From IMG/VR virus record IMGVR_UViG_3300028531_000001, positions 1 through 64,000 of that record: a stretch of 64,000 nt of DNA, one strand, 5' to 3'. A program made the translations under genes and the position numbers. Every line of letters starts with the position of its first letter. The stretch's first letter is position 1. The stretch is from a virus (taxonomy: Duplodnaviria > Caudoviricetes). Shown piece after piece: positions 10,403 through 54,894 of this stretch. Below the pieces are notes generated by a model. It worked only from the letters and a program-made list of their open reading frames with translations. It made no database searches and had not been told where the DNA came from.

Positions 10403-10840
10403 ATGCCCGCGACGAAGCTCTACATGAACTGGACCGGCGTGACGGTCACCCCGAACGGCGGGTCCGCGATCAACCTGACCGGCGTGACGGACGTGTCGTT
10501 CAACCGGTCGGGCACCAACAAGCCGTTCTTCGGCGACAACCGCCAGCACGCCAGGGCGATCCGCACGACCAACCAGGCCCGATCGGTCTCGATCTCCTGC
10601 GGCGACCTCTCGGCGCTCGACAGCGTGGCGATCGGCACCGTCTGCACCGTGGTCGGCACGCTCAACGACCTGCACAACGGGACCGGAAGCGGGGCGAGGA
10701 CCTACACCGCGATCAACGCCGTGCTCTCGTCCAAGCCCGACGGCAGCTCGAACGACGACTACGCGGGGACGACCTACTCGTTCGACTGCTTCGGCTCCGC
10801 CCTCGACGCCGACCCGATCTCCGTCGTCAACGCCACCTGA
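10403..10840 (+). CDS. Putative tail tube protein
   Basis: 145 aa, Thr/Gly/Ser-rich beta-sandwich pattern; SD GAGGTGA. Confidence 0.55.
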   Translation: MPATKLYMNWTGVTVTPNGGSAINLTGVTDVSFNRSGTNKPFFGDNRQHARAIRTTNQARSVSISCGDLSALDSVAIGTVCTVVGTLNDLHNGTGSGARTYTAINAVLSSKPDGSSNDDYAGTTYSFDCFGSALDADPISVVNAT

Positions 10841-10855
10841 TCGGGAGGCCGGACC

Positions 10856-11248
10856 GTGCCCGACCCAGCGACGATCTTCCCGCCGACGTTCCACGGCCAG
10901 GCGATCTTCGGGACCGCCTGGGTCGTGGCGGCCATGCCCAACCCCAACGACCGCCAGTTCTTCGCCCCGCCCGGCGTCAACGGGATGTTCTCCAAGAACC
11001 TCGGGAGCCGCGGCGGGCGGACCGTGATCCACGCCATGTGGCTCGGCGAGACGCCCGCCGTGATCGCCGCGGCCGAGCAGATCCTGTTCAACTTCTTGCG
11101 GTCGGGCCTCACGTCGGTCTTCACCGACCTGAACGGCTCGGCCTGGCCGCACGTCTGCATCGAAACGTACGTCTCCGAGGACGAGGTCCAGCCAACCAAC
11201 GGCGGCTGGGGCCGGTCGTTCACGGTGACCCTGTTCCACCACGCGTGA
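10856..11248 (+). CDS. Putative distal tail/hub-associated protein
   Basis: 130 aa between the tube and tail-tip genes; SD GGAGG. Confidence 0.4.
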   Translation: MPDPATIFPPTFHGQAIFGTAWVVAAMPNPNDRQFFAPPGVNGMFSKNLGSRGGRTVIHAMWLGETPAVIAAAEQILFNFLRSGLTSVFTDLNGSAWPHVCIETYVSEDEVQPTNGGWGRSFTVTLFHHA

Positions 11249-17835: not shown

Positions 17836-18684
17836 TCATCTCAGGCTCAGGACGGCGGGCGACGGCTCGGGCCCCGCGGCGGGCTCGGCCCGGATCAGGT
17901 CGAGCACCGCGGCCTTCCAGCGGATCGGCTGGATCGGCGTCCCGTCGGAGTGGCGTTTGTTGAGGTCCACGTAGACCCCGAAGACCTTGCTGGCCGGCGT
18001 CATCTCCCAGTGCTTGCGGGGCTTGACCTGGAGCCCGGCGGAGGCGAGCCGGAGGTTGACGTCGCGGGGGCCGATCCCGCCGAGCATCGCGCCCAGTTCG
18101 GTCGGCGTGCACAACTTCTCGTTCTCGGGCGACGGCAGGGCGATGGCAAGCTGATCGAGGACGCTAACTCCCCTGCCCTTGCGGTATCCCTTGTCCGCGG
18201 CGAGCAACGCCTGGTTGCCCTCCAGGCCGCACATGCCGACGATCGCCAGGCAGGCGGCGAAGTCGGTCTGCATCGCGGCGTAGTTGACGCCGGCAGGCTG
18301 GACGGGCGGCAGCAGGCCGAAGTGGCGGGCCAGGGCGTCGCGGCACTCGACCTGGAAAAGCTCGAGTTTCGGGCGGATCTCCGGGCCGACCTTACCGACG
18401 TTGATGGTCGCCAGCCACATGGGGACGGAGTTCAGGTCGAGCAGGAATTGTTCCTGCACATGTCCTCTCTCGTCTGGTGTGGGCATAATGCCCATACGAG
18501 CCCACGAAGATGCCCTGAGCTTCTTGAGTTGGGTCGTCAGGTCGATCCCCAGGCTCTCGCAGATCCGGCGGACGGAGACGAGCACCTGCCCTTCCGGGGT
18601 GCGGATCGCTTGCAGTTGGTCGCCGTGGAACTCGATCGTCTCCAGGCGGTTGCGGTCGCTCGGTAGTACGGGGACGCTGGACAT
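17836..18684 (-). CDS. ant: Phage antirepressor (P22 Ant N-terminal domain)
   Basis: 'IEFHGDQL...VSVRRICESLGID...VPMWLATINVGKV.PEIRPKLELFQVEC'. Confidence 0.85.
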   Translation of the reverse strand: MSSVPVLPSDRNRLETIEFHGDQLQAIRTPEGQVLVSVRRICESLGIDLTTQLKKLRASSWARMGIMPTPDERGHVQEQFLLDLNSVPMWLATINVGKVGPEIRPKLELFQVECRDALARHFGLLPPVQPAGVNYAAMQTDFAACLAIVGMCGLEGNQALLAADKGYRKGRGVSVLDQLAIALPSPENEKLCTPTELGAMLGGIGPRDVNLRLASAGLQVKPRKHWEMTPASKVFGVYVDLNKRHSDGTPIQPIRWKAAVLDLIRAEPAAGPEPSPAVLSLR

Positions 18685-18728
18685 TGTCTTCTCCGGCTTG
18701 GATGGGGTGAGGGCTCGGAGGGGCGGGC

Positions 18729-19220
18729 TCAGGCTTCGAAGACGTAGCAGGACTCTTCCGCCAGGCCGAACTCGAACGCCTCGCGGGCGTCGAACATCTC
18801 GATCAGGCGGTACTGCTCGTCGATCTCGTGATTGGCGATCTCGTCCAGCTCGGCCTCGACCTCGGCGCGGGCGTCCATCTCGGCGCGGAGGCGGACGAAC
18901 TCGGCCGGGGCCATCGCTTCGTCGGCGGCGAAGTCGGCGAGCACGTCGCCGCAAGCCGGGTCGGCCTGGATCGCCCGCAGGTGGCGGTGCAGTTCGGCCG
19001 ACTTCCGCGAGAGTTCGTTGGACCGAGCGAGAATCGCCTTGCGTGCGTCGAAGGCGGCATCGCTGTCGTCGCCCCAGGTGGCGTCAATCTGGTCCGAGAG
19101 GGAGAGTTGGATGAGGGCGATGTCGTCGATCCGGTCGAGGATCTCGATCGCGTCGGTGCCGTAGGAGGAGACGGGGATGGAGGCGTGGACGGACCGGGGG
19201 CGGGAGACTACCATGTTCAT
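18729..19220 (-). CDS. Hypothetical acidic helical protein, first gene of leftward operon A
   Basis: 163 aa, GC3 bias, downstream of a sigma70-like promoter. Confidence 0.65.
   Translation of the reverse strand: MNMVVSRPRSVHASIPVSSYGTDAIEILDRIDDIALIQLSLSDQIDATWGDDSDAAFDARKAILARSNELSRKSAELHRHLRAIQADPACGDVLADFAADEAMAPAEFVRLRAEMDARAEVEAELDEIANHEIDEQYRLIEMFDAREAFEFGLAEESCYVFEA
19186..19214 (+). promoter_or_regulatory. Predicted antisense sigma70-type promoter inside the first codons of 18729..19220
   Basis: TGGACG-17 nt-TACCAT. Confidence 0.5.
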
Positions 19221-36899: not shown

Positions 36900-37595
36900 A
36901 TGCGAGTCTACCTGGCCAGTCCGAATACGCAACAACAGGCTGAGCACGCCTGCGACATGCCGGTCCTGCTGTCGTTCGGCTGCTGGTCGGACTGGATGGA
37001 CCGCTACCAGGCGACGTTCTCGCGGTTGTTGATCGATTCGGGAGCTTACAGCGAGTTGAACTCAGGTAAGAAAATCGATCTCGATGCCTACATGGATTGG
37101 GCCGGTCGGTGGGTCGGGCACGCCGACGCGATCGCGGGGCTGGACGACATCTCGGGCGACTGGCGGCGGTCGCTGGCCAACTACGAGCGGTTCGTTTTGG
37201 GCTTCCCGACGTATCACGACACGGACCCGCCCGAACTCCTCGACGACCTGATCGAGATCGCCCGCGAGCGTGGACGCTGGATCGGCCTGGGCGTCAAGCC
37301 GCCGCGAGAGGGCAAGGAGCGATGGATCCGAGACGCATGCGAGCGAATTCCCGAGGACTTCCACATCCACGGCTGGGCGCTCAGGCGATACACGCACGTC
37401 AGGCGGATGGACTCGGCCGATAGCACTAACTGGTGGCGGGACGCGATGAAACTCCGCGTTACAAGCGGGCTGGAACACCTGACCTACGGCGAGTGCCTCG
37501 GAATCGTCGTCAAGCGATATCAGCGGTGGGAGAGGACGATCAAAGAGCCCGCAAAGCAGCCGAGCCTGTGGGATTCGCTGGAGGTGGCCTTGTGA
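36900..37595 (+). CDS. TGT-superfamily transglycosylase, DpdA-like
   Basis: LLIDSGAYS, LDDI, FPTYH, IHGWA and DSADSTNW motifs; coupled to queE. Confidence 0.7.
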   Translation: MRVYLASPNTQQQAEHACDMPVLLSFGCWSDWMDRYQATFSRLLIDSGAYSELNSGKKIDLDAYMDWAGRWVGHADAIAGLDDISGDWRRSLANYERFVLGFPTYHDTDPPELLDDLIEIARERGRWIGLGVKPPREGKERWIRDACERIPEDFHIHGWALRRYTHVRRMDSADSTNWWRDAMKLRVTSGLEHLTYGECLGIVVKRYQRWERTIKEPAKQPSLWDSLEVAL

Positions 37596-38206
37596 AGACT
37601 TACGCGGTCAAGGAGATCTTCTACTCGATCCAAGGCGAGGGGGCCAAGGCGGGCCAGCCTGCGGTCTTCGTCCGCCTCAGCGGCTGCAACCTCTGGTCGG
37701 GCCGCGAGGAAGACCGGGCCACAGCAGCCTGCCGGTTCTGCGACACCAACTTCTCGGGCGGCGCCAAGTTGACCGCCGAACAGATCGCCGACCAGGCCCG
37801 GTCGCTCTGGCCCAACGAGACTCCGGGCTGGTGCGTCCTGACGGGCGGTGAACCGGCCTTGCAGGTCGATCGGGAGTTGGTGGCGGCACTCCGGGCAAGG
37901 GGATTCCGGGACGCGATCGAGACCAACGGGACCGTGCCGCTCGGCCTCCGCCATGACTGGGTCACGCTCAGCCCGAAGGCCGGGACGACGATCGAGCAAA
38001 CCTACTGCGATGAACTCAAGGTCGTCTACCCGCAGGAGGGATTGGACCTCGAAGACCTGGGCTCGATCGCCACGACGCGGCGGTATCTCCAGCCGATGGA
38101 CGGGCCGGACCTCGATCGAAACCGGGCGTCGGCGGCGGCGTACTGCCTGGCCCATCCCGAATGGGCGTTGAGCCTTCAGATTCACAAGATCCTGGGGGTG
38201 GCCTGA
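37592..38206 (+). CDS. queE: 7-carboxy-7-deazaguanine synthase (radical SAM, CX14CX2C type)
   Basis: KEIFYSIQGEG, CNLWSGREEDRATAACRFCDT, TGGEP, IETNGT, SPK, QIHK. Confidence 0.92.
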   Translation: MKTYAVKEIFYSIQGEGAKAGQPAVFVRLSGCNLWSGREEDRATAACRFCDTNFSGGAKLTAEQIADQARSLWPNETPGWCVLTGGEPALQVDRELVAALRARGFRDAIETNGTVPLGLRHDWVTLSPKAGTTIEQTYCDELKVVYPQEGLDLEDLGSIATTRRYLQPMDGPDLDRNRASAAAYCLAHPEWALSLQIHKILGVA

Positions 38207-40246: not shown

Positions 40247-40449
40247 AAACCTTGATCGAAATCGCACTGTCGGCCTGGTGCATGATTGGCCTGATACTGG
40301 CAGTCCTCGCCTCCCTCGCCTTTATGCTCTGGGTCGGGGAGAAGCTAATCGACTTCATTCTGATCCGACTCCAACTGAAGCGTGAATTCTTGGCATTCGC
40401 CTATCAGCGAATCCGATCGAGACAGCAGACGCAGGACACCACCCGATGA
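40243..40449 (+). CDS. Small membrane protein
   Basis: GTG start; TM 'AWCMIGLILAVLASLAFMLWV'. Confidence 0.5.
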   Translation: MKTLIEIALSAWCMIGLILAVLASLAFMLWVGEKLIDFILIRLQLKREFLAFAYQRIRSRQQTQDTTR

Positions 40450-40688
40450 CCGCCGACCAATTCGCCGCCCGATTCTCCACACGCCTCTCCGAACTGATCG
40501 ACGACCGGGGGCTCAGGCTGCACGACGTGATCGACGCCTCGGGGCTGTCGCAGAACGTCGCCGGGGCGATCTCCGGCGGCCGACGCGAGCCGACGTTGCG
40601 GGAGGCGATGGTGCTGGCGCGGGCGTTGGGCGTGTCGCTGGACGTGCTGTGCGAGGGGCTGCTGGACTTCGAGTGGGAGGGGGAGTGA
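40446..40688 (+). CDS. XRE-family HTH protein
   Basis: 'LSQNVAGAISGGRREPTLREAMVLARALGVSLDVL'. Confidence 0.75.
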   Translation: MTADQFAARFSTRLSELIDDRGLRLHDVIDASGLSQNVAGAISGGRREPTLREAMVLARALGVSLDVLCEGLLDFEWEGE

Positions 40689-40996
40689 TGAATATGCGAC
40701 GCAAGTCGGCTGTGAAATGGACGCACCTTCCCAGTGGAATTTCGGCCGTGGCCGAAGCCGATCGGGATGTTCGTCTTCCGGGAGTGTCAACGATTGCCAA
40801 GAAGTTGCTCGCCGCTCGGGTCTGGGCGTCAACGCAAGAGCGACCAAAGGGGAATCGACGCTCCTACGTGTGCTGCCCATATCAGGCCGTGAAGGACCAC
40901 AGAAACGGCCAGGTGCTCATGGAAGATCCGGCACGTTTTCTGAGTGGCGACCTCGACCCGCTGCTCAGACTAGCCCTGAAGGAGGCCAGGCCGTGA
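40688..40996 (+). CDS. Truncated release-factor-2-like protein lacking GGQ
   Basis: 'SAVKWTHLPSGI', 'AKKLLAARV', 'RSYVCCPYQAVKDHRNG', 'FLSGDLD' parallel the RF2 C-terminal region; SD GGAGG. Confidence 0.7.
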   Translation: MNMRRKSAVKWTHLPSGISAVAEADRDVRLPGVSTIAKKLLAARVWASTQERPKGNRRSYVCCPYQAVKDHRNGQVLMEDPARFLSGDLDPLLRLALKEARP

Positions 40997-41181
40997 GCCA
41001 GCGAACGGCGGCGGAGATCCGGCGGGAGATCGAGGAACTCACGCGGCAACACGACGATCGGCTGGGGCGATCGACCAATCGTGCTCTCCAAGCGTACCTG
41101 ATGCGGACGCACGATGAGACTTTCGGCCGGCTGCGGGCCGAACTCGCGGCAGCCGAGCGGCGGGAGGTGGGGAATGGGTGA
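40993..41181 (+). CDS. Hypothetical helical protein
   Basis: GTG start, 62 aa, coupled. Confidence 0.5.
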   Translation: MSQRTAAEIRREIEELTRQHDDRLGRSTNRALQAYLMRTHDETFGRLRAELAAAERREVGNG

Positions 41182-44617: not shown

Positions 44618-45541
44618 ATGAGCATCGCCCCCTACGACCGCGACACCGAAATCGAAGCCTACGACGACGAAGAGACGCAGGAGGTCAACCTCGGCGGGAC
44701 CGCGATCGAGCTTGCGACGCGTGCCGAGATCGCCGCACAGGTGGCGGTGGCTCGCCAGTATCCGAGGTCGATCAAGCGATTCCTTAACACGGCACGGGAA
44801 ATGGCCACGCTCGACCCGCGCATGGCCGAGGCTTGCAACTACGCGGTCCCTCGCGGCGGCAAGATCATCGAAGGGCCGTCGGTCCGACTCGCCGAGATCG
44901 CCGCTTACGCCTGGGGCCACCTGAGGGTCGAGGCGAAGATCGTTTCCGAGGATGAGCGGTTCGTGACCGCCAGGGGCGTGTGCCATGACATGCAGACCAA
45001 CGTCTTCGTGGCTTACGAGACCAAGCGCAAGATCAGCTACTCCAACGGCCGCCGATACAACGACGACATGATCGCCACGACGGGCAACGCGGCGGCTTCC
45101 ATCGCCCTGCGCAACGCGATCTTCCGGGTCATCCCCAACGCCCTGATCAAGCCGCTGGCCGACGAGGCGAAGATGTGCGCCAAGGGGGACGTCAAGACGT
45201 TGTCGGCCCGCCGAAGCGCGTTGCTCGAGCACTTCGGCCGGCTCGGCGCCAAGCCGGAGGACGTCTACCGCGTCCTCGGTGTTGCCGGGGTGGAGGACAT
45301 CACCCTCGATCACCTCCTGACCATGCAGGGGATCGCCGCGGCCATCAAGGACGGCGAGACGACCTTCGAGTCTGTCTTCACCGTGCCTGTCACGGTGGCC
45401 AGCAAGTCCGAGGGAATCACGGCCACCCTGACGGCCAAACTCGCCGAATCCCCCGCCCCTTCGAAGGCCGAGCCCGCCCCGGCCGCGACGCCGAAGGTCG
45501 AGCCGGCGAAGAAGACCCGCGAGCCCGGCGAGGACGGCTGA
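44618..45541 (+). CDS. Putative single-strand annealing protein (YqaJ partner)
   Basis: 'RAEIAAQVAVARQYPRS...YAVPRGGKIIEGPSVRLAE'; near YqaJ. Confidence 0.6.
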   Translation: MSIAPYDRDTEIEAYDDEETQEVNLGGTAIELATRAEIAAQVAVARQYPRSIKRFLNTAREMATLDPRMAEACNYAVPRGGKIIEGPSVRLAEIAAYAWGHLRVEAKIVSEDERFVTARGVCHDMQTNVFVAYETKRKISYSNGRRYNDDMIATTGNAAASIALRNAIFRVIPNALIKPLADEAKMCAKGDVKTLSARRSALLEHFGRLGAKPEDVYRVLGVAGVEDITLDHLLTMQGIAAAIKDGETTFESVFTVPVTVASKSEGITATLTAKLAESPAPSKAEPAPAATPKVEPAKKTREPGEDG

Positions 45542-45549
45542 ACCACCGA

Positions 45550-45586
45550 GGGGCCTGCGGCGTGGGTCGCGGGCCCCCTGCTCTTT
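45550..45586 (+). terminator. Hairpin after the SSAP gene (weak U tract)
   Basis: GGGGCCTGCGGC-GTGG-GTCGCGGGCCCC then CTGCTCTTT. Confidence 0.45.
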
Positions 45587-45615
45587 CCCAAGACCGATCG
45601 GCACCGAGGTTCCCC

Positions 45616-48600
45616 ATGCACCAGCCGAGTATCCGAGCGTCGATCATCACCCGCAGGACGTACTGCCGACCTCTCGACGACGAGGGGACCGTATTCGAGA
45701 CCTGGCCGCAGGTGATCGACCGGGTCAAGTCGCATCAGCGATGGCTCTGGGAGAACGCCCAGGGGTTCAGCCTGTCTCCGAGTCAGGAAGACGAACTGGC
45801 GGAACTATCCGGCCTCATGCTCGACCGGAAGTTGATGCCCGCGGGCCGGACCCTCTGGCTCGGCGGGACGGACATCGTCAAGCGGCGGGCCGCATCCAAC
45901 TACAATTGTTCGTTTCTCAAAACGAAATCGGTCCACGACATCGTCGACGCGTTCTGGTTGCTGCTCCAGGGCTGCGGCGTCGGGTTCAAGATGGAGACGG
46001 GCGGGCTCAGCGGATTCAACAGGAAACTCGAAATCCAGGTCGCCCCCTCGACCCGGACCGACGCCAACGGGCGGGACACGAACGAGGAGCACTTCGACTC
46101 CGAGAGCGGCGTATGGACGATCAACGTCGGCGACTCTGCCGAGGCGTGGGCCAAGGCGGCCGGCAAACTCGTCGTCGGAAAGTTCCCCGCGAAGGTGCTC
46201 CGGATCGAGACGACCGAGGTCCGCCCGGCCGGGACTCGGCTCAAGGGTTACGGCTGGATCTGTGCTGGCGACTCGCAACTCCTGAAGGCGTTCACGGAGA
46301 TCGCCGGCATCCGCAACCGCAAGGCCGGGAAACTGCTCACGAAGCTCGACGTGCTCGACCTCGTGAACTGGCTCGGGACCGTGCTCTCGACCCGCCGCTC
46401 CGCCCAGGCCGCCCTCATGGATTACGGCGACAAGGAGTGGGAGGACTTCGCCACGGCCAAGGCCCCCGGCTATTGGGAGAAGAACCCGCAGCGGGCCCAG
46501 AGCAACAACGGCCTGATGTTCTGGGAGAAGCCGAGCCTTCGTGAAATCCGCTCGATCTTCAATATGATGGTCGAGCACGGGGGGGGCGAACCGAGCTTCA
46601 ACAACGCGGCCGAGGCCAGGCGTCGGGCCCCTTGGTTCGACGGTTTCAACCCCTGCGTGACCGGAGACACCTGGGTCCTGACCACCGAGGGGCCGAGGAA
46701 GGCTGTCGACCTCGTCGGGCAACCCTTCACGGCGATCGTCGATGGCCTGCCGCACGACTCGACCGACCGCGGGTTCTACCCGACCGGCGAGAAGATGGTC
46801 TACCGGGTCGAGACCGATCGGGGGTACTCGTTCGAGTGCACCGACAACCACCAGATTCAGGAGGTCTATTCGCTTACCGCGAAGTCGCGTCGGACCCGAT
46901 GGACGGAACTCAAGGATCTCAAGGTCGGAGACCGGATCAGCCTGCACAACCACGAGGACGCCGCGTGGTCAGGGGCCGGGAGCCGCGAGGAGGGCTGGCT
47001 GGTCGGCAGCCTTCTCGGAGACGGTGTCTTCATGGGTGGGAATGTCGAGACGGCCCGCCTGTCCTATTGGGGGCCGACGAAGGAAGTGATGGCCGGGATC
47101 GCCCGGGATTCGATCCTCTCGACCGTTAAGGCCCGATCGGACTGCGGGCGACGATCCCCCGGCGGGGTTCAGGAGATCAAGTATGATCGAATGAACCTCA
47201 GCAGCACCGGCCTGCGGTCGATGGCCGAGTCCTTCGGGCTAACCGCGATCAAGACCCTGGGGGATGAGGTCGAACATACGTCGTCGGACTTCCACGAGGG
47301 GTTCCTCTCGGGATGGTTCGACGCCGACGGATCGGTGTGCGGCGGTCAGTCACACGGCGTCTCGGTCCGCCTCACCTCGGTCATACTGAAGAACCTCTAT
47401 GCGGCTCAACGCATGCTGGCCCGGCTCGGGATCATCTGCAAGGTCTACAAGGATCGCCAACCCGAAGGACCTCGCACGCTCCCGGACGGCAAGGGCGGGG
47501 TCAAGGACTACAACTGCCAGGCCGGTCACGAATTGATCATCTCGGGCAGGAGCCTCGCCAGGTTCGCGGAACGTGTTGGCTTCCGGCATCCGGCCAAGAG
47601 TAAGAAGCTCGCGGCCAGGATGGACGCATACCAGCGAGGGCTCAACCGCGAGCGATTCACGGCCCGGATCAAGTCGATCAGGCCGGTCGGCGTCCAATCT
47701 GTCTACGACTGCACGATCCCGACGGCCAGCCAGTTCGACGGGAATGGGGTGAACCTCCACAACTGTTTCGAAATCATCCTGGCCGACCGTGGTTTCTGCA
47801 ACCTCTTCGACATCAACGTACTGCGGTTTGTTGATGACCATCATGGCCTGCACCGGGCGATCTATTTGGCCGGCAGGGCGAACTACCGCCAGACGCTCGT
47901 GGACTTGCGTGACGGCATCCTCCAACACTCGTGGCACGAGAACAACGAGTTCCTGCGGCTCTGCGGCGTGGGCCTGACGGGGCTCGTGACTCGGCCCGAC
48001 CTGGACGACTATGCGCTTCGGCAACTCCGCAACTCGGCGACGGCCGGGGCCTACTCGATCGCGGACGAACTCGGGCTGGAGCGGCCCAAGAACGTCACGA
48101 CGATCAAGCCGTCGGGCACGGTCTCGAAGATCATGGACTGCACCGAGGGGGCCCACAAGCCTCTCGGCCGGTACATCTTCAACAACGTCAACTTCTCCAG
48201 GCATGACCCGCTCGTCGGCATGCTCACCGACGCCGGATACGACGTGCTGGACAATCCCACCGACCCGGCGGCCGTGCTGGTCAAGATCCCGACCTCGTGG
48301 CCGACCGTGCCGTTCGGGCTCTCCCCCGCCGGAGTCCCGGTCAATCATGAGTCGGCGGTCGATCAGTTGGAGCGATACCGCAAACTCCAGAACAGCTACT
48401 GCGATCAGAACACGTCGATCACCGTCAGCTACGACCCGTCGGAAGTCCCGGCGATGTCGAAGTGGTTCGACAAGAACTGGGACAGCTACGTCGGTGCCGC
48501 CTTCCTGTTCCGCAACGACCCCACGAAGACAGCGGCCGACCTCGGGTTCGCGTATCTCCCGCAGGAGGTGGTCGACGCGGAGACGTACCGGAAGTACGAG

Positions 48601-48690
48601 AGTCGATTGAAGCCGATCGACATCGACGCGGCGTCGGGTGAGGACCTGATCGACGCGGACTGCTCGACCGGCGCGTGCCCGGTCCGGTGA
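45616..48690 (+). CDS. nrdJ: Class II (B12-dependent) ribonucleotide reductase, intein-containing
   Basis: TRRTYCR, MPAGRTLW, YNCSF, GCGVG, NP[intein]CFE, TTIKPSGT, CSTGACPVR. Confidence 0.92.
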   Translation: MHQPSIRASIITRRTYCRPLDDEGTVFETWPQVIDRVKSHQRWLWENAQGFSLSPSQEDELAELSGLMLDRKLMPAGRTLWLGGTDIVKRRAASNYNCSFLKTKSVHDIVDAFWLLLQGCGVGFKMETGGLSGFNRKLEIQVAPSTRTDANGRDTNEEHFDSESGVWTINVGDSAEAWAKAAGKLVVGKFPAKVLRIETTEVRPAGTRLKGYGWICAGDSQLLKAFTEIAGIRNRKAGKLLTKLDVLDLVNWLGTVLSTRRSAQAALMDYGDKEWEDFATAKAPGYWEKNPQRAQSNNGLMFWEKPSLREIRSIFNMMVEHGGGEPSFNNAAEARRRAPWFDGFNPCVTGDTWVLTTEGPRKAVDLVGQPFTAIVDGLPHDSTDRGFYPTGEKMVYRVETDRGYSFECTDNHQIQEVYSLTAKSRRTRWTELKDLKVGDRISLHNHEDAAWSGAGSREEGWLVGSLLGDGVFMGGNVETARLSYWGPTKEVMAGIARDSILSTVKARSDCGRRSPGGVQEIKYDRMNLSSTGLRSMAESFGLTAIKTLGDEVEHTSSDFHEGFLSGWFDADGSVCGGQSHGVSVRLTSVILKNLYAAQRMLARLGIICKVYKDRQPEGPRTLPDGKGGVKDYNCQAGHELIISGRSLARFAERVGFRHPAKSKKLAARMDAYQRGLNRERFTARIKSIRPVGVQSVYDCTIPTASQFDGNGVNLHNCFEIILADRGFCNLFDINVLRFVDDHHGLHRAIYLAGRANYRQTLVDLRDGILQHSWHENNEFLRLCGVGLTGLVTRPDLDDYALRQLRNSATAGAYSIADELGLERPKNVTTIKPSGTVSKIMDCTEGAHKPLGRYIFNNVNFSRHDPLVGMLTDAGYDVLDNPTDPAAVLVKIPTSWPTVPFGLSPAGVPVNHESAVDQLERYRKLQNSYCDQNTSITVSYDPSEVPAMSKWFDKNWDSYVGAAFLFRNDPTKTAADLGFAYLPQEVVDAETYRKYESRLKPIDIDAASGEDLIDADCSTGACPVR
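46654..47763 (+). mobile_element. Intein (370 aa) with LAGLIDADG endonuclease in nrdJ
   Basis: CVTGDTWV...VYDCTI...NLHN|C; GSLLGDG and GWFDADGS motifs. Confidence 0.93.
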
Positions 48691-51073: not shown

Positions 51074-52294
51074 GTGGCTTATCGCTGGGGGAAGATCAAC
51101 GACGGGGATCCATTCCACCGGATCACCAAGGACCTGCTCAGGCCGCTCCTGACGGCCGACCTAGGCAAATACGACGGGTGCCTGATCGCCAGCCTGATCG
51201 ACGAGAGTTGGACGAAGCCCTACGTGGAGTCGAAGCGGCGGCCGAATGCGGAGGTCGAACCCGTCCCATTCCGGGTGCCGTGCAGCCAGATCGCCCGCGA
51301 CTTCGGCTGCCCCAAGCAGCGGATCAGCAAGGCGAAGCGGACCCTGATCGCCCGCAGGATCATGATCGAATTGCCCGACGGGACGGTCCTCTTCAACAAG
51401 AATGTCGACGACTGGATCGGCCTGGACGGCCAGCCCCAGTTCACCGAAGGGCAACTCCAATTGTTTATACGGGATGGGATGGCATCGTCGAAGAAAACCA
51501 AGACGACACACAACTGTGTGACGAAAAAGGGGCGGTCGAAGCCAAACGACACACTCCAGGGTGACGAAACCGGGAAATCGGGCGGCCCCGACACACAACT
51601 GTGTGACGTTCTGCATGCCAGCGAGAATCCCGTATCCGGCGACACACAACTGTGTGACGCTCGACCGGAAAACGACACACAACTGTGTGACGCAACGACA
51701 CACTCGGCTGTGTCGTCCCACTATATAGGAACGCGCCCGTCAGAAGACTCAGAAGACTTCAATACAAGAGGTGCTACGCACCAATTCGCGGGCGGGCGCG
51801 ATGCCGGCGGCGGGGAGACCATCGGGGAGGGGCCGAGGAAGGTGCCCGACTTCCCCGCGGTGCTGCCCAGGCCGACCGACGTCCACCCCGGCCCACACGA
51901 GCCGGACTGGGAGCGGGTCGACTTCGCCCGGGGCCTGGCGATGAAGCTCTGGATCAACGACCGGCTGGGGCTGGACATCCGGGCCCACGCCCGCCAGTGG
52001 CCGAGCGAGTGGTTCGTGAGGGTCGTCAAGCGGCTCTGGGCCCAGCAGGCGTACCCGCACAGCTTCAAACTCCTGCGGACCATCCTGAACGGCTGGGACC
52101 GCAAGGGCGGGCCCGACGCGGGGCCGGAGGACGACTACGACGACAGGCTCGAGTTCATCCCGCAGTCGAAGCGGGGAGTCCTGCCCCTGTCCAAGCCGGG
52201 ACCCAGGCCGACTTCGGATGACAAATCCCTGAATGAGTTCATCCCCATATCCAAACGATTCGCCCAAGCCCAGGCCAACGGGAGCCCACTGTGA
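51074..52294 (+). CDS. Phage replication initiator (lambda O-like) with internal origin
   Basis: wHTH 'SQIARDFGCPKQRISKAKRTLIARRIM...FNKNVDDW'; iterons in the linker; directly upstream of dnaB. Confidence 0.75.
   Translation: MAYRWGKINDGDPFHRITKDLLRPLLTADLGKYDGCLIASLIDESWTKPYVESKRRPNAEVEPVPFRVPCSQIARDFGCPKQRISKAKRTLIARRIMIELPDGTVLFNKNVDDWIGLDGQPQFTEGQLQLFIRDGMASSKKTKTTHNCVTKKGRSKPNDTLQGDETGKSGGPDTQLCDVLHASENPVSGDTQLCDARPENDTQLCDATTHSAVSSHYIGTRPSEDSEDFNTRGATHQFAGGRDAGGGETIGEGPRKVPDFPAVLPRPTDVHPGPHEPDWERVDFARGLAMKLWINDRLGLDIRAHARQWPSEWFVRVVKRLWAQQAYPHSFKLLRTILNGWDRKGGPDAGPEDDYDDRLEFIPQSKRGVLPLSKPGPRPTSDDKSLNEFIPISKRFAQAQANGSPL
51505..51714. repeat. Origin iterons: four exact 19-mers GACACACAACTGTGTGACG plus two degenerate copies
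   Basis: Exact at 51505, 51590, 51641, 51674; degenerate at 51548, 51697. Confidence 0.92.
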
Positions 52295-54894
52295 GCCGCG
52301 AACCCAGGAACAATCATCCGCTTTCCGGCAAGATGCCGCCGTCGAATGTCGCCGTCGAGGCCGAGGTGCTCGGGGCGTGCCTGATGAGCCGGGAGGCGAT
52401 CGACGAGGTAGCCGACGTGCTCAGGTCCGAGGACTTCTTCCGGGCGTGGCACGGGGAAGTCTGGTCCGCGATCAAGGGGCTCTGGTCGAAGGGCGAGCCG
52501 GTCACAATCGCGTCGGTCGCCGAAGCCCTGAAGGGCGAGGACAAGGCCGCCGACTTCGCCTCGCTGGCCGAGATCACCGCGAACACGCCGCACTCGGCGG
52601 ACGCCCGGTACAACGCCGAGATCGTGAGGCAGAAGGCGGTCGGCCGGGAATTGATTCGCTGGTCGAACGAGGTCCTTGCGGCGGCCTACGCCCAGCAGGA
52701 CACGAGCAACGCCCAGGTCCAGGACGCCCTCTCCGGTTTACTCAAGATCGCGGACCGCGGGGCGACCTCCCGGGTGTATGACGCCCCCGCGTTCATGGAG
52801 ATCGCCTGGAACGGACTCCAGGAGCGACGCCTCGGCAAGGCGACTGGGCTGAAGATCGGATTCCCCCAACTCGACGAACTGATCGGCGGGTTCGCGAATC
52901 AGCAACTGATCATCGTCGCGGCCAGGCCGGCGATGGGCAAGACCGCGTTCGCCATGCGGATTGCCGAGGCGTTCGCCGTAGACCAGGGACTCCCGACGCT
53001 GATGTTCAGCATGGAGATGGGGGTCGAGGAATTGGCGGACCGGCTGTGGAGCGGCCGCTCCCAGGTCATGGCCGACAAACTCAAGAACCCGATGTACCTG
53101 AACGACTCGGACGAAAACAGGCTCGGCAAGGCCCACCGGGACCTGGCGGATTCGGCCCTCCACATCGACGACACCGCGGCCCGGAGCGTGGAGCAGATCG
53201 CCGCGACCGCCAGGCGTCATGCCGGCCGGGGCGGGCTGAAGGCGGTGATCGTGGACTATCTGCAATTGATCGAGGAGGACTCCGATCGGTCCAGCCGGCA
53301 GGAGGAGGTCGCCCGGATCACCCGGTCGTTGAAGGCCCTCGCCAAGGAACTCAACCTGCCAGTCGTGGCGCTCTCGCAGTTGAACCGCAAGAGCGAGGAT
53401 CGCCCGGATAAGAGGCCGAAGCTGTCGGACTTACGGGAGTGCGTCACGGCCGACACGACGATTTACTGCTCGAGGACCGGTCGTATCCGGACCGTCGGCG
53501 AGTACGTCTCGTCCGGCGTCGGGCCGTCGGTCTACGGACTGGACGATCGGGCATCGTCGGGGCCGTGGAAGGTCGGGACGTCCAAGGCCGAGCCGTTCTG
53601 GTCCACCGGGGTCAAGCCCGTGTTCCGAGTCAGGACGGCCACCGGCCGGCAGATCCGCTGCACCGCGAACCATCCCCTCCGGACGATCGGCGGGTGGAAG
53701 CCCCTGGAAGAAATCCGGGTCGGCCAGCGGATCGCCTCGCCCCGATTCCTCCCCGAGCCATCGTCGGCGGCCGACCCGATGCACCGCGACGAGGCGAGGC
53801 TGCTGGGCTACCTGATCAGCGACGGCACGTATCTCCCGCAGCGGAGCGTCGGGTATGTGAAGGCCGACCCCGCGATGGTCTCCGAGGTCGAGCGGATCGC
53901 GAGGGATCGGTTCGGGATCGAGGCGAAGGACCATGCGTGCCGGGGGCCGGCGAGGCAGATCGAACTCACCCGGAGGGATTGCGGCCCCGGCGGGAACCCG
54001 GTCATCGAGTGGCTGAAGTCGCTGGGGATTCACGGCCAGAAGGGCCACCGGAAGACGATCCCGGATGCCCTGCTCTCCTCGCCGAACGAGATCGTCTCCG
54101 AGTTCATGGCCACGCTCTGGGCGGGCGACGGGTGCGTGACGAGGCGGAAGCACGGCGGGTACGCCCTGAAGTTTAGTTCCACGAGCATGCGGCTCCTGGA
54201 GCAGATGCAGATGCTCCTGCTCCGGTTCCGGATTGTCTCGGTGCTCGGCAAGCCCGGCCGCAACACGAAATCGACCCGGGACATCGCGTTGCTCTCGATC
54301 TCGGACTCGAGGCAGGTCATCCGCTTCTCGGAGCACTTCGCCCTCCCCGGCCGGAAGGGCGAGCAACTCGAGTACGCCGCCGACGAGTGCCGGATGATGG
54401 ACGAGAACTCGCACATCGACCGGATGCCCATCGAGGCCACCGCGATGATCTCGTCGGCCAAGCGGGAGGCCGGACTGTCCTGGTCGGGCCTCGGCTACCG
54501 GTGCCAGGGCAAGGAGATCCACCCCGGCCGATTCGCCGAACTGGCGGACCGGCTCGGCCACCGCGGGATGCAGTCGGTCGGGGCGGCGGACGTGCTCTGG
54601 GACAAGATCGTCTCGATCGAACCCGACGGCGAGGCCGAGACCTTCGACGTTCGGGTCCCGGGCATCCACAATTTCGTCGCCGGCGGGATCTTCGCCCACA
54701 ACAGCGGCGCGATCGAGCAGGACGCCGACAAGGTGATCCTACTCCACCGTCCCGAATACTACGACCCGACCGACATGCCCGGGACCGCCGAGGTGATCGT
54801 CGCGAAGAACCGCAGCGGGCAGACCGGGACCGTGCGGCTGAGGTGGGACAAGGAGACAACCAGATTCTCCGTCGATCCCGACGAGCAGTTCTGA
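52291..54894 (+). CDS. dnaB: Replicative DNA helicase, intein-containing
   Basis: AARPAMGKT, FSMEM, VDYLQL, LSQLNR, LRE[intein]SGAIEQDAD, KNRSG. Confidence 0.95.
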   Translation: MSREPRNNHPLSGKMPPSNVAVEAEVLGACLMSREAIDEVADVLRSEDFFRAWHGEVWSAIKGLWSKGEPVTIASVAEALKGEDKAADFASLAEITANTPHSADARYNAEIVRQKAVGRELIRWSNEVLAAAYAQQDTSNAQVQDALSGLLKIADRGATSRVYDAPAFMEIAWNGLQERRLGKATGLKIGFPQLDELIGGFANQQLIIVAARPAMGKTAFAMRIAEAFAVDQGLPTLMFSMEMGVEELADRLWSGRSQVMADKLKNPMYLNDSDENRLGKAHRDLADSALHIDDTAARSVEQIAATARRHAGRGGLKAVIVDYLQLIEEDSDRSSRQEEVARITRSLKALAKELNLPVVALSQLNRKSEDRPDKRPKLSDLRECVTADTTIYCSRTGRIRTVGEYVSSGVGPSVYGLDDRASSGPWKVGTSKAEPFWSTGVKPVFRVRTATGRQIRCTANHPLRTIGGWKPLEEIRVGQRIASPRFLPEPSSAADPMHRDEARLLGYLISDGTYLPQRSVGYVKADPAMVSEVERIARDRFGIEAKDHACRGPARQIELTRRDCGPGGNPVIEWLKSLGIHGQKGHRKTIPDALLSSPNEIVSEFMATLWAGDGCVTRRKHGGYALKFSSTSMRLLEQMQMLLLRFRIVSVLGKPGRNTKSTRDIALLSISDSRQVIRFSEHFALPGRKGEQLEYAADECRMMDENSHIDRMPIEATAMISSAKREAGLSWSGLGYRCQGKEIHPGRFAELADRLGHRGMQSVGAADVLWDKIVSIEPDGEAETFDVRVPGIHNFVAGGIFAHNSGAIEQDADKVILLHRPEYYDPTDMPGTAEVIVAKNRSGQTGTVRLRWDKETTRFSVDPDEQF
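53440..54702 (+). mobile_element. Intein (421 aa) with LAGLIDADG endonuclease in dnaB
   Basis: CVTADT...TANHP...FAHN|S; GYLISDG and LWAGDG motifs. Confidence 0.93.

What the first reader, a model, noticed from the sequence alone, without database searches (positions are those of the whole stretch)
40688..40996. GGQ-less mini release factor 2 mimic
Seen: 102-aa ORF with its own SD. Against the RF2 consensus as I recall it: SAVRITHIPTGI = SAVKWTHLPSGI; AMKMLRARL = AKKLLAARV; QIRSYVLHPYQMVKDHRTG = NRRSYVCCPYQAVKDHRNG; VLDGDLD = FLSGDLD. It starts just after where GGQ would be (upstream in-frame residues read GGGV) and lacks the codon-reading SPF domain. Established: GGQ is required for peptidyl-tRNA hydrolysis. 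Inference: a non-catalytic decoy that could bind ribosomes, PrmC, ArfA or RF-sensing defences, or promote readthrough.
Basis: partly seen in the sequence, partly recalled or inferred. Interest (0 to 1): 0.85.

Follow-up and report, generated by a model that had tools for sequence, protein, structure and literature searches.

The report
Phage mini release factor 2, no GGQ
An uncultivated high-GC phage carries a small, selectively maintained gene that is the tail end of bacterial release factor 2, cut off exactly after the catalytic GGQ motif. It cannot release peptides itself and probably binds something RF2 normally binds, but its function is untested.

Summary
Window 40688-40996 (+) encodes a 102-aa basic protein (pI 10.3) with its own Shine-Dalgarno site. 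It is homologous to the last ~110 residues of RF2: TIGR00020 E=8e-8 over profile positions 249-352 of 353, and a family profile against solved RF2 chains gives E=8e-13, equal to E. coli RF2 residues 256-362.

It starts at the residue after GGQ. It lacks domains 1 and 2 (the SPF codon reader), the GGQ loop, the RSQxxN motif and about 13-17 residues of helix alpha7 and the switch loop.

It is not a decaying fragment. About ten relatives in metagenomic phage contigs form three subfamilies:
- A: 102-104 aa
- B: 116-127 aa
- C: 63-91 aa, only domain 4 plus a basic helix

All have an SD and ATG at the same point, and three have in-frame stops 4-6 codons upstream. dN/dS is 0.15-0.30. No other RF2 piece lies in the 76.9-kb phage record, so it is not a split RF2.

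The function is untested. My best guess is a non-catalytic RF2 mimic that occupies an RF2 binding site on the ribosome and modulates UGA/UAA termination. The rivals are an RNA-binding derivative like plant PrfB3, or a decoy for PrmC or another RF2 partner.

I file it as a new variant of a known kind. An earlier first-stage note on this same stretch gave the same reading.

The parts
40688..40996 (+). mini-RF2 gene: 102 aa, pI 10.3, stop TGA. Homologous to E. coli RF2 residues ~253-365, minus part of alpha7 and the switch loop.
40675..40685 (+). Shine-Dalgarno-like GGGAGGGGGAG.
   Evidence: All family members have GGAGG/AGGAG/GGAGAG 5-9 nt before their ATG or GTG.
40706..40759 (+). Residues 7-24: beta-hairpin matching the two strands of RF2 domain 3 that follow the GGQ loop. 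It contains the retained T-H-x-P-S/T-G motif.
   Evidence: Model, alignments, VIA-align Z about 5 to RF1/PrfH/RF2 domain 3
40766..40834 (+). Residues 27-49: helix matching the N-terminal part of RF2 helix alpha7. The RSQxxN motif before it is lost. About 13-17 residues after it (end of alpha7 and switch loop) are missing.
40856..40987 (+). Residues 57-100: RF2 domain 4 (R-S-Y-V..P-Y-Q..V-K-D-x-R-x-G ... L-x-G-D-L-D-x-L-L). This is the only part kept in all three subfamilies.
40446..40688 (+). Upstream 80-aa XRE/Cro-type HTH gene. Its stop overlaps the mini-RF2 start (TGATG). This neighbour is not conserved in relatives.
40993..41181 (+). Downstream 62-aa helical protein. Its GTG overlaps the mini-RF2 stop (GTGA). 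It is homologous to the gene downstream of the closest relative (L003) but not to those of other relatives.

Best explanation
Shown: this is a real, selectively maintained phage gene in the early/replication operon. It encodes a truncated derivative of release factor 2 made of three pieces: the beta-hairpin and first half of helix alpha7 of domain 3, beginning at the residue after GGQ; a short linker; and domain 4. It has no GGQ, no SPF/PCRF codon reader, no domain 1 and no switch loop, so it can neither recognise stop codons nor hydrolyse peptidyl-tRNA. It belongs to a small family of phage mini-RF2 proteins whose common core is domain 4.

Inferred: the protein is basic and keeps the parts of RF2 that lie against rRNA. 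These are domain 4 at the 30S decoding site and the T-H-x-P-S/T-G hairpin of domain 3. I therefore think it acts as a non-catalytic mimic that occupies an RF2 binding site on the ribosome. This would compete with or modulate RF2-dependent termination, or A-site access, early in infection. About 70% of this phage's crudely called ORFs end in TGA. The direction of the effect (host shut-off, UGA readthrough or frameshifting, protection of the A site) is unknown.
For: Homology to RF2:
- TIGR00020 E=7.9e-8 over profile 249-352.
- Six-frame hit at 40679-40978.
- Family profile vs PDB RF2 E=8e-13; RF1 is weaker.
- All top Foldseek hits are RF2/RF1.

Truncation is real and conserved:
- SD plus start codon at the same position in every member.
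- In-frame stops 4-6 codons upstream in three members.
- A library search without length limits found no fused or longer form of this type.

Selection:
- dN/dS 0.15, 0.20 and 0.30 in three pairs, with dS above 1.
- Lengths are conserved, and two paralogues sit on one contig.

Phage context:
- In the window: ParA, beta clamp, RusA, YqaJ, RNR, dUTPase, DnaB.
- Relatives lie in early regions of phage-like contigs that carry integrase, terminase and portal genes.

Not a split RF2: no PCRF domain and no second RF-1 domain in the record.

Basic character: net charge mostly +4 to +7 (one member +1), against 0 to +6 for the same segment of cellular RF2.

TGA ends 45 of 65 crude gene calls.

Domains 2 and 4 form the codon-recognition superdomain at the decoding centre (PMC6742477).
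Against: - No binding or activity data exist.
- Without domain 2 and the switch loop, canonical RF2-like docking cannot be assumed. In RF2, domain 4 packs on domain 2, so a free domain 4 may expose a surface meant for another partner.
- Structural matches are weak (Foldseek E >= 0.02; VIA Z about 5 for residues 1-54 only). The inter-lobe geometry is uncertain (pTM 0.45).
- The charge difference from cellular RF2 segments is modest.
- The family is rare: about 11 proteins, none in 50,697 isolated-phage records.
- The host is unknown.
Confidence: 0.35

Rival explanations
1. A repurposed RNA-binding protein. Like plant PrfB3, an RF2 derivative that lost GGQ and SPF and now binds and stabilises petB mRNA, the mini-RF2 would bind a specific phage or host RNA rather than the ribosomal A site.
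For: PrfB3 is a precedent (PMC5897788). The protein has pI about 10. The N-terminal beta-beta-alpha lobe resembles dsRBD and hibernation-factor folds at the same weak Z as RF domains. All termination-specific motifs are lost.
Against: No RNA target or conserved neighbouring RNA element was found. The most conserved part is domain 4, for which I know of no free RNA-binding activity (my own knowledge, not tested here). The structural similarities are at noise level.
Confidence: 0.2
2. A decoy for a protein that recognises RF2. Candidates are the GGQ methyltransferase PrmC (which, from my recollection of the RF1-PrmC structure 2B3T, contacts domain 3 and the domain 2/4 region of the closed factor), an ArfA/BrfA-type rescue adaptor, or an unknown defence or toxin protein that targets RF2. 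Titrating PrmC would leave RF2 unmethylated and weaken termination.
For: The fragment keeps the parts flanking the methylation site but not the substrate Gln. The short linker predicts a compact, closed-like shape. The highest query-normalised Foldseek TM-scores among the full-length release-factor chains (0.38-0.40) are to free or PrmC-bound closed factors (2b3t_B, 2ihr, 1rq0), against 0.29-0.34 for most ribosome-bound forms. One ribosome-bound RF2 (5u9f_Z) also reaches 0.40, so the difference is small.
Against: The GGQ loop, the main PrmC contact, is absent. Subfamily C keeps only domain 4. ArfA is restricted to some Proteobacteria and binds domain 2 and the switch loop, both of which are missing here. 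No partner was tested.
Confidence: 0.15
3. A non-functional relic: a 3' piece of a host prfB gene picked up by the phage and drifting.
For: GC3 of the gene (0.66) is lower than that of its neighbours (0.77-0.94). The family is rare.
Against: Intact ORFs of conserved length occur in at least 7 contigs and three subfamilies. Each has its own SD and start at the same position. dN/dS is 0.15-0.30 with saturated dS. There are specific, shared deletions relative to RF2.
Confidence: 0.03

Closest known systems
Bacterial release factor 2 (PrfB, TIGR00020; e.g. E. coli RF2, PDB 1GQE)
   Same: Clear sequence homology to residues ~253-365: the post-GGQ strands of domain 3, the start of helix alpha7 and domain 4. 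It is closer to RF2 than to RF1.
   Different: One third of the length. It has no domain 1, no domain 2/SPF, no GGQ loop, no RSQxxN motif and no switch loop, so it cannot decode stop codons or release peptides.
Plant chloroplast PrfB3
   Same: An RF2-derived protein that lost both GGQ and SPF and took on a non-termination role (PMC5897788).
   Different: PrfB3 is described as an additional RF2-related protein of land plants that lost the two motifs; I did not compare sequences or lengths. The phage protein is a ~100-aa C-terminal fragment. The two are independent derivations.
ArfB (YaeJ) / ICT1 / mtRF-R (C12orf65) and PrfH: short RF-family rescue factors
   Same: Small proteins built from part of a class I release factor. 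The N-terminal lobe of the model aligns weakly with their GGQ domains.
   Different: All of those keep GGQ and are hydrolases. ArfB has a basic C-terminal tail instead of domain 4. The phage protein lacks GGQ and keeps domain 4.
Phage-encoded release factors and small viral RF-1-domain proteins
   Same: Phages are known to carry RF genes. PHROG 19918 (355-position profile, function unknown) matches at E=2e-5. The ESM Atlas lists viral clusters of ~95-aa RF-1-domain proteins as nearest neighbours, at scores of 0.84-0.85, which the tool rates a lead only.
   Different: I could not see whether those ~95-aa viral clusters have GGQ, because no sequences are returned. None of the 50,697 isolated-phage records holds a member of this family.

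Membership tests
Release factor 2 (PrfB, TIGR00020) | Full-length match above the curated cut-off (370 bits) covering domains 1-4 | tested here: not met
   31.7 bits, profile positions 249-352 only. The protein is 102 aa.
Release factor 2 (PrfB, TIGR00020) | GGQ catalytic motif | tested here: not met
   The protein begins at the residue after the GGQ column. In-frame stops lie 4-6 codons upstream in L007, L004 and L008.
Release factor 2 (PrfB, TIGR00020) | PCRF domain with the SPF stop-codon reader | tested here: not met
   No PF03462 match at E<=10 anywhere in the 76.9-kb record.
Release factor 2 (PrfB, TIGR00020) | Homology of the C-terminal region (post-GGQ domain 3 plus domain 4) | tested here: met
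   E=7.9e-8. Family profile vs PDB RF2 E=8e-13 over residues 4-98.
Pfam RF-1 domain (PF00472) | Score above the gathering threshold (35 bits) | tested here: not met
   17 bits, E=0.006, profile 31-116/116: the part after GGQ only.
ArfB/ICT1-type codon-independent rescue factors | GGQ domain followed by a basic C-terminal tail that enters the empty mRNA channel | tested here: not met
   No GGQ. The C-terminus is RF2 domain 4, not a tail.
PrfH | Match to TIGR03072 above the cut-off (166 bits), GGQ, and an RtcB neighbour | tested here: not met
   14.4 bits, E=0.02. No GGQ. The Pfam and PHROG scans of selected neighbouring ORFs named no RtcB; no direct RtcB search was run.
Phage mini-RF2 family (defined here) | 63-127 aa, own SD/start at or after the GGQ position, conserved domain 4 motif R-[ST]-[YW]..P-[YC]..V-x-D-x-R/T-x-G ... 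L-x-G-x-[LI]-[DA], phage context, purifying selection | tested here: met
Ribosome-binding / termination-modulating activity (works-like claim) | Physical association with ribosomes or an effect on RF2-dependent release | not testable with these tools
   Needs biochemistry.

The most novel reading that the evidence does not exclude
The mini-RF2 family is a phage-encoded antagonist of host release factor 2. It would be a catalytically dead domain-4-based mimic that sits in the termination site (or titrates PrmC), so that early in infection the phage reprogrammes UGA/UAA termination. That would be a previously undescribed way for a virus to take over bacterial translation termination.
Probability: 0.2. 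Interest if true: 0.85.

Novelty: new variant of a known kind. Interest (0 to 1): 0.62.

Why it matters
Class I release factors are among the most conserved translation factors, and every short bacterial derivative known so far (ArfB, PrfH) keeps the catalytic GGQ. Here several phage lineages hold under selection a fragment that begins exactly after GGQ and whose minimal version is domain 4 alone. That suggests this part of RF2 has a binding activity of its own that a virus can exploit.

If it interferes with termination, it would be a natural, genetically encoded tool to tune UGA/UAA termination. It would also be a new class of phage host-takeover protein. If instead it binds RNA or PrmC, it would be a bacterial-world parallel to plant PrfB3. 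Either outcome can be tested directly with a 102-aa synthetic gene.

Tried and rejected
- Homodimer prediction for the protein (alignment A5, 2 copies): no verdict, score 0.00. This is evidence neither for nor against.
- Sequencing-run search: no RNA holder listed. There were only two small-share DNA holders and I laid no reads, so it says nothing on expression or habitat.
- IMG/VR scans with the single protein and with three family alignments. They found only a full-length, probably host, RF2 (L009) and one 63-aa domain-4-only ORF (L010/L148).
- Genome and metagenome scans with the subfamily A alignment returned only cellular full-length RF2 genes at 27-47% identity (best segment). No prophage copy in a named genome was found, so the host is not identified. 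One genome scan with A5 failed for lack of conserved columns.
- tblastn against isolated phages gave only unannotated Listeria, Enterococcus and faecal 'phage' records at 30-32% identity and E of 2e-4 to 4e-3, which I take to be host prfB (not checked).
- Foldseek (PDB, BFVD) and VIA-align gave no strong structural match. RF chains lead the PDB list, but at E >= 0.02 and Z about 5.
- Split-RF2 idea rejected.
- Conserved gene-pair / toxin-antitoxin idea (HTH upstream, 62-aa downstream) rejected. The upstream genes differ in every lineage, and the downstream gene is shared only with the closest relative.
- Search for TGA-readthrough candidates: only one same-frame ORF pair separated by a TGA (10403-10840 / 10856-11248), which is not convincing.
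- Suppressor tRNA: none. The record has one tRNA-Met.
- I did not run complex predictions with E. coli PrmC or RF2. A stand-in host and likeness to solved structures would make either outcome uninformative.
- Literature searches found no description of a GGQ-less phage RF fragment.

Full report
**What is there**

The window is the first 64 kb of a 76,864-bp linear IMG/VR virus record (CheckV completeness 83%, GC about 65%). At 40688-40996 (+) lies a 102-aa ORF. It is preceded by GGGAGGGGGAG at 40675-40685. Its ATG overlaps by one base the TGA of an 80-aa XRE-type HTH gene at 40446-40688. Its own TGA overlaps the GTG of a 62-aa gene at 40993-41181.

The gene sits in a long co-directional early/replication operon:
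- ParA (30344)
- DNA polymerase III beta clamp (34633)
- QueE-like radical-SAM protein (37433)
- RusA (38161)
- YqaJ exonuclease (43234)
- Ribonucleotide reductase with an intein (45175)
- dUTPase (49118)
- DnaB with an intein (52291)
- DUF5131 (55558)
- Phage metallopeptidase (59638)

A tape-measure-like protein and virion proteins lie in the first 15 kb.

**Is it RF2-like?**

Yes. NCBIfam prfB (TIGR00020) matches residues 7-97 to profile positions 249-352 of 353 at E=7.9e-8. prfA (0.005) and prfH (0.02) are much weaker. Pfam RF-1 matches only its post-GGQ part (31-116/116) and stays below the gathering score.

A profile of five family members hits solved RF2 chains at E=8e-13 to 1e-9, with residues 4-98 aligned to E. 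coli RF2 256-362. It hits RF1 chains only at 4e-8 or worse.

In a multiple alignment with full-length RF2s, the protein begins at the residue after GGQ. It keeps the S-A-V-x-x-T-H-x-P-S/T-G-I hairpin, the first part of helix alpha7, and the whole of domain 4 (R-S-Y-V..P-Y-Q..V-K-D-H-R-x-G ... L-x-G-D-L-D-P-L-L).

It has lost the RSQxxN motif and, in net, 13 residues (17 deleted, offset by small insertions) that cover the end of alpha7 and the switch loop. In RF2, domains 2 and 4 form the codon-recognition superdomain. The switch loop links that superdomain to catalytic domain 3 through H69 and the decoding centre (PMC6742477).

The AlphaFold2 model has mean pLDDT 84 and pTM 0.45. It shows strands at 7-12 and 19-24, a helix at 27-49, a poorly defined linker at 50-66, and a small alpha/beta C-terminal lobe. 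Every top Foldseek hit in the PDB is RF2 or RF1, but only at E >= 0.02, because the two lobes sit differently. VIA-align gives Z about 5 for residues 1-54 against RF1, PrfH, mtRF-R and RF2. That is no better than for other beta-beta-alpha folds. Homology therefore rests on sequence profiles, not on the fold search.

**Is the truncation real, and is the gene alive?**

An exhaustive HMMER search of 1.84 billion representatives and a profile search of 5.8 billion proteins found about ten relatives.

| Subfamily | Members | Length | Notes |
|---|---|---|---|
| A | P0001 (this gene), P0002 (76%), P0029 (55-57%), P0003 (50-54%) | 102-104 aa | |
| B | P0018, P0030, P0031 | 116-127 aa | Longer linker; JGI's pipeline calls them 'release factor 2' |
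| C | P0025, P0032, P0027, plus a 63-aa ORF on a 132.8-kb IMG/VR contig (L010:5968-6159) | 63-91 aa | Only a basic helix plus domain 4 |

The remaining hits are ordinary RF2s or fragments of them. No longer or fused form of the mini type appeared, although one search has no length limit.

Where long contigs exist, the context is phage-like:
- L003 and L007 are two parts of one 53.9-kb Logan contig with Rad52, ThyX, methylase, integrase, terminase and portal. That contig carries two paralogues.
- L008 is a 112-kb contig with DnaB, phage metallopeptidase, beta clamp and integrase. That gene set resembles the window's.

Every member has an SD 5-9 nt before its start codon. In L007, L004 and L008 an in-frame stop lies only 4-6 codons upstream. 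None can therefore encode GGQ. The window's upstream 'GGGV' is just the SD read in that frame.

Nei-Gojobori estimates show purifying selection with synonymous sites near saturation:
- Window vs L003: dN/dS = 0.15 (dS 1.17)
- L005 vs L008: 0.20
- L003 vs L007: 0.30

The pseudogene reading is therefore rejected. The one oddity is a lower GC3 (0.66) than in neighbouring genes (0.77-0.94).

**What it is not**

- It is not a split RF2. No PCRF domain and no second RF-1 domain exist in the record.
- It is not part of a stop-codon-recoding kit. The record's only tRNA is tRNA-Met, genes read well in code 11, and no convincing TGA-readthrough candidates were seen.
- It is not half of a conserved two-gene module. 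The upstream neighbours differ in every lineage, and the 62-aa downstream gene is shared only with the nearest relative (44% identity).

**How it most likely works**

Shown: the protein cannot be a release factor, because it has no GGQ and no codon reader. It is basic, with pI 10.3. Family net charge is mostly +4 to +7 (one member +1), against 0 to +6 for the same RF2 segment. The element under the strongest common constraint is domain 4. Subfamilies A and B also keep the T-H-x-P-S/T-G hairpin of domain 3.

Inferred: it retains a binding surface of RF2 without the chemistry.
- I rank first (about 0.35) a ribosome-directed mimic that interferes with or modulates RF2-dependent termination or A-site access. 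TGA ends 45 of 65 crude gene calls in this phage.
- I rank second (about 0.2) an RNA-binding derivative analogous to plant PrfB3, which also lost GGQ and SPF (PMC5897788).
- I rank third (about 0.15) a decoy for an RF2-binding protein such as PrmC.

The loss of the switch loop, and the existence of domain-4-only members, argue against a simple RF2-like docking and keep all three open. A homodimer prediction gave no verdict and is not used as evidence.

**Novelty**

Known short RF relatives (ArfB/ICT1, mtRF-R, PrfH) keep GGQ. PrfB3 is a eukaryotic, organellar, RF2-related protein. I found no paper describing a GGQ-less RF2 C-terminal fragment family in phages, and no member in 50,697 isolated-phage records.

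The ESM Atlas points to viral clusters of ~95-aa RF-1-domain proteins as the nearest neighbours. Its scores of 0.84-0.85 are rated a lead only, and I could not inspect those sequences.

I file it as a new variant of a known kind. The identity is secure and the mechanism is open. An earlier first-stage note on the same stretch read it the same way.

Noticed in passing
window 45175-48690 and 52291-54894: Both the ribonucleotide reductase and the DnaB helicase genes carry inteins with LAGLIDADG homing-endonuclease domains.
   Followed up: no
L003:10001-10309 and L007:5924-6235 (one Logan contig, SRR30518537_696, 53.9 kb): The same contig carries two mini-RF2 paralogues (P0002 and P0029, 57% identical), each in an early-gene block. 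The contig may hold two adjacent prophages or be a chimeric assembly.
   Followed up: partly
L010:5968-6159 (IMGVR_UViG_3300010371_000028, 132.8 kb): A 63-aa ORF consisting only of RF2 domain 4 behind a short basic N-terminus. It has an SD, and its stop overlaps the next gene's ATG. This is the minimal form of the family.
   Followed up: partly
window 40688-40993: GC3 of the mini-RF2 gene is 0.66, against 0.77-0.94 for its neighbours and about 0.95 for the structural genes. This may reflect foreign origin or weak codon adaptation.
   Followed up: no
window 10403-10840 and 10856-11248: Two high-GC3 ORFs in the same frame in the tail region, separated by a TGA and five codons. They could be two genes by chance or a readthrough product.
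   Followed up: no
window 37433-38206: A radical-SAM protein (Pfam Radical_SAM, E=1.5e-7) that I read as QueE-like from its sequence, in the early operon. If so, it could hint at 7-deazaguanine DNA modification. No other pathway genes were looked for.
   Followed up: no
L149:558-630 (record 64558-64630): A single tRNA-Met (CAT) is encoded in the part of the record beyond the window.
   Followed up: no
window 17836-18954 (-): An anti-repressor (Ant)-like protein on the minus strand, between the structural and early regions.
   Followed up: no
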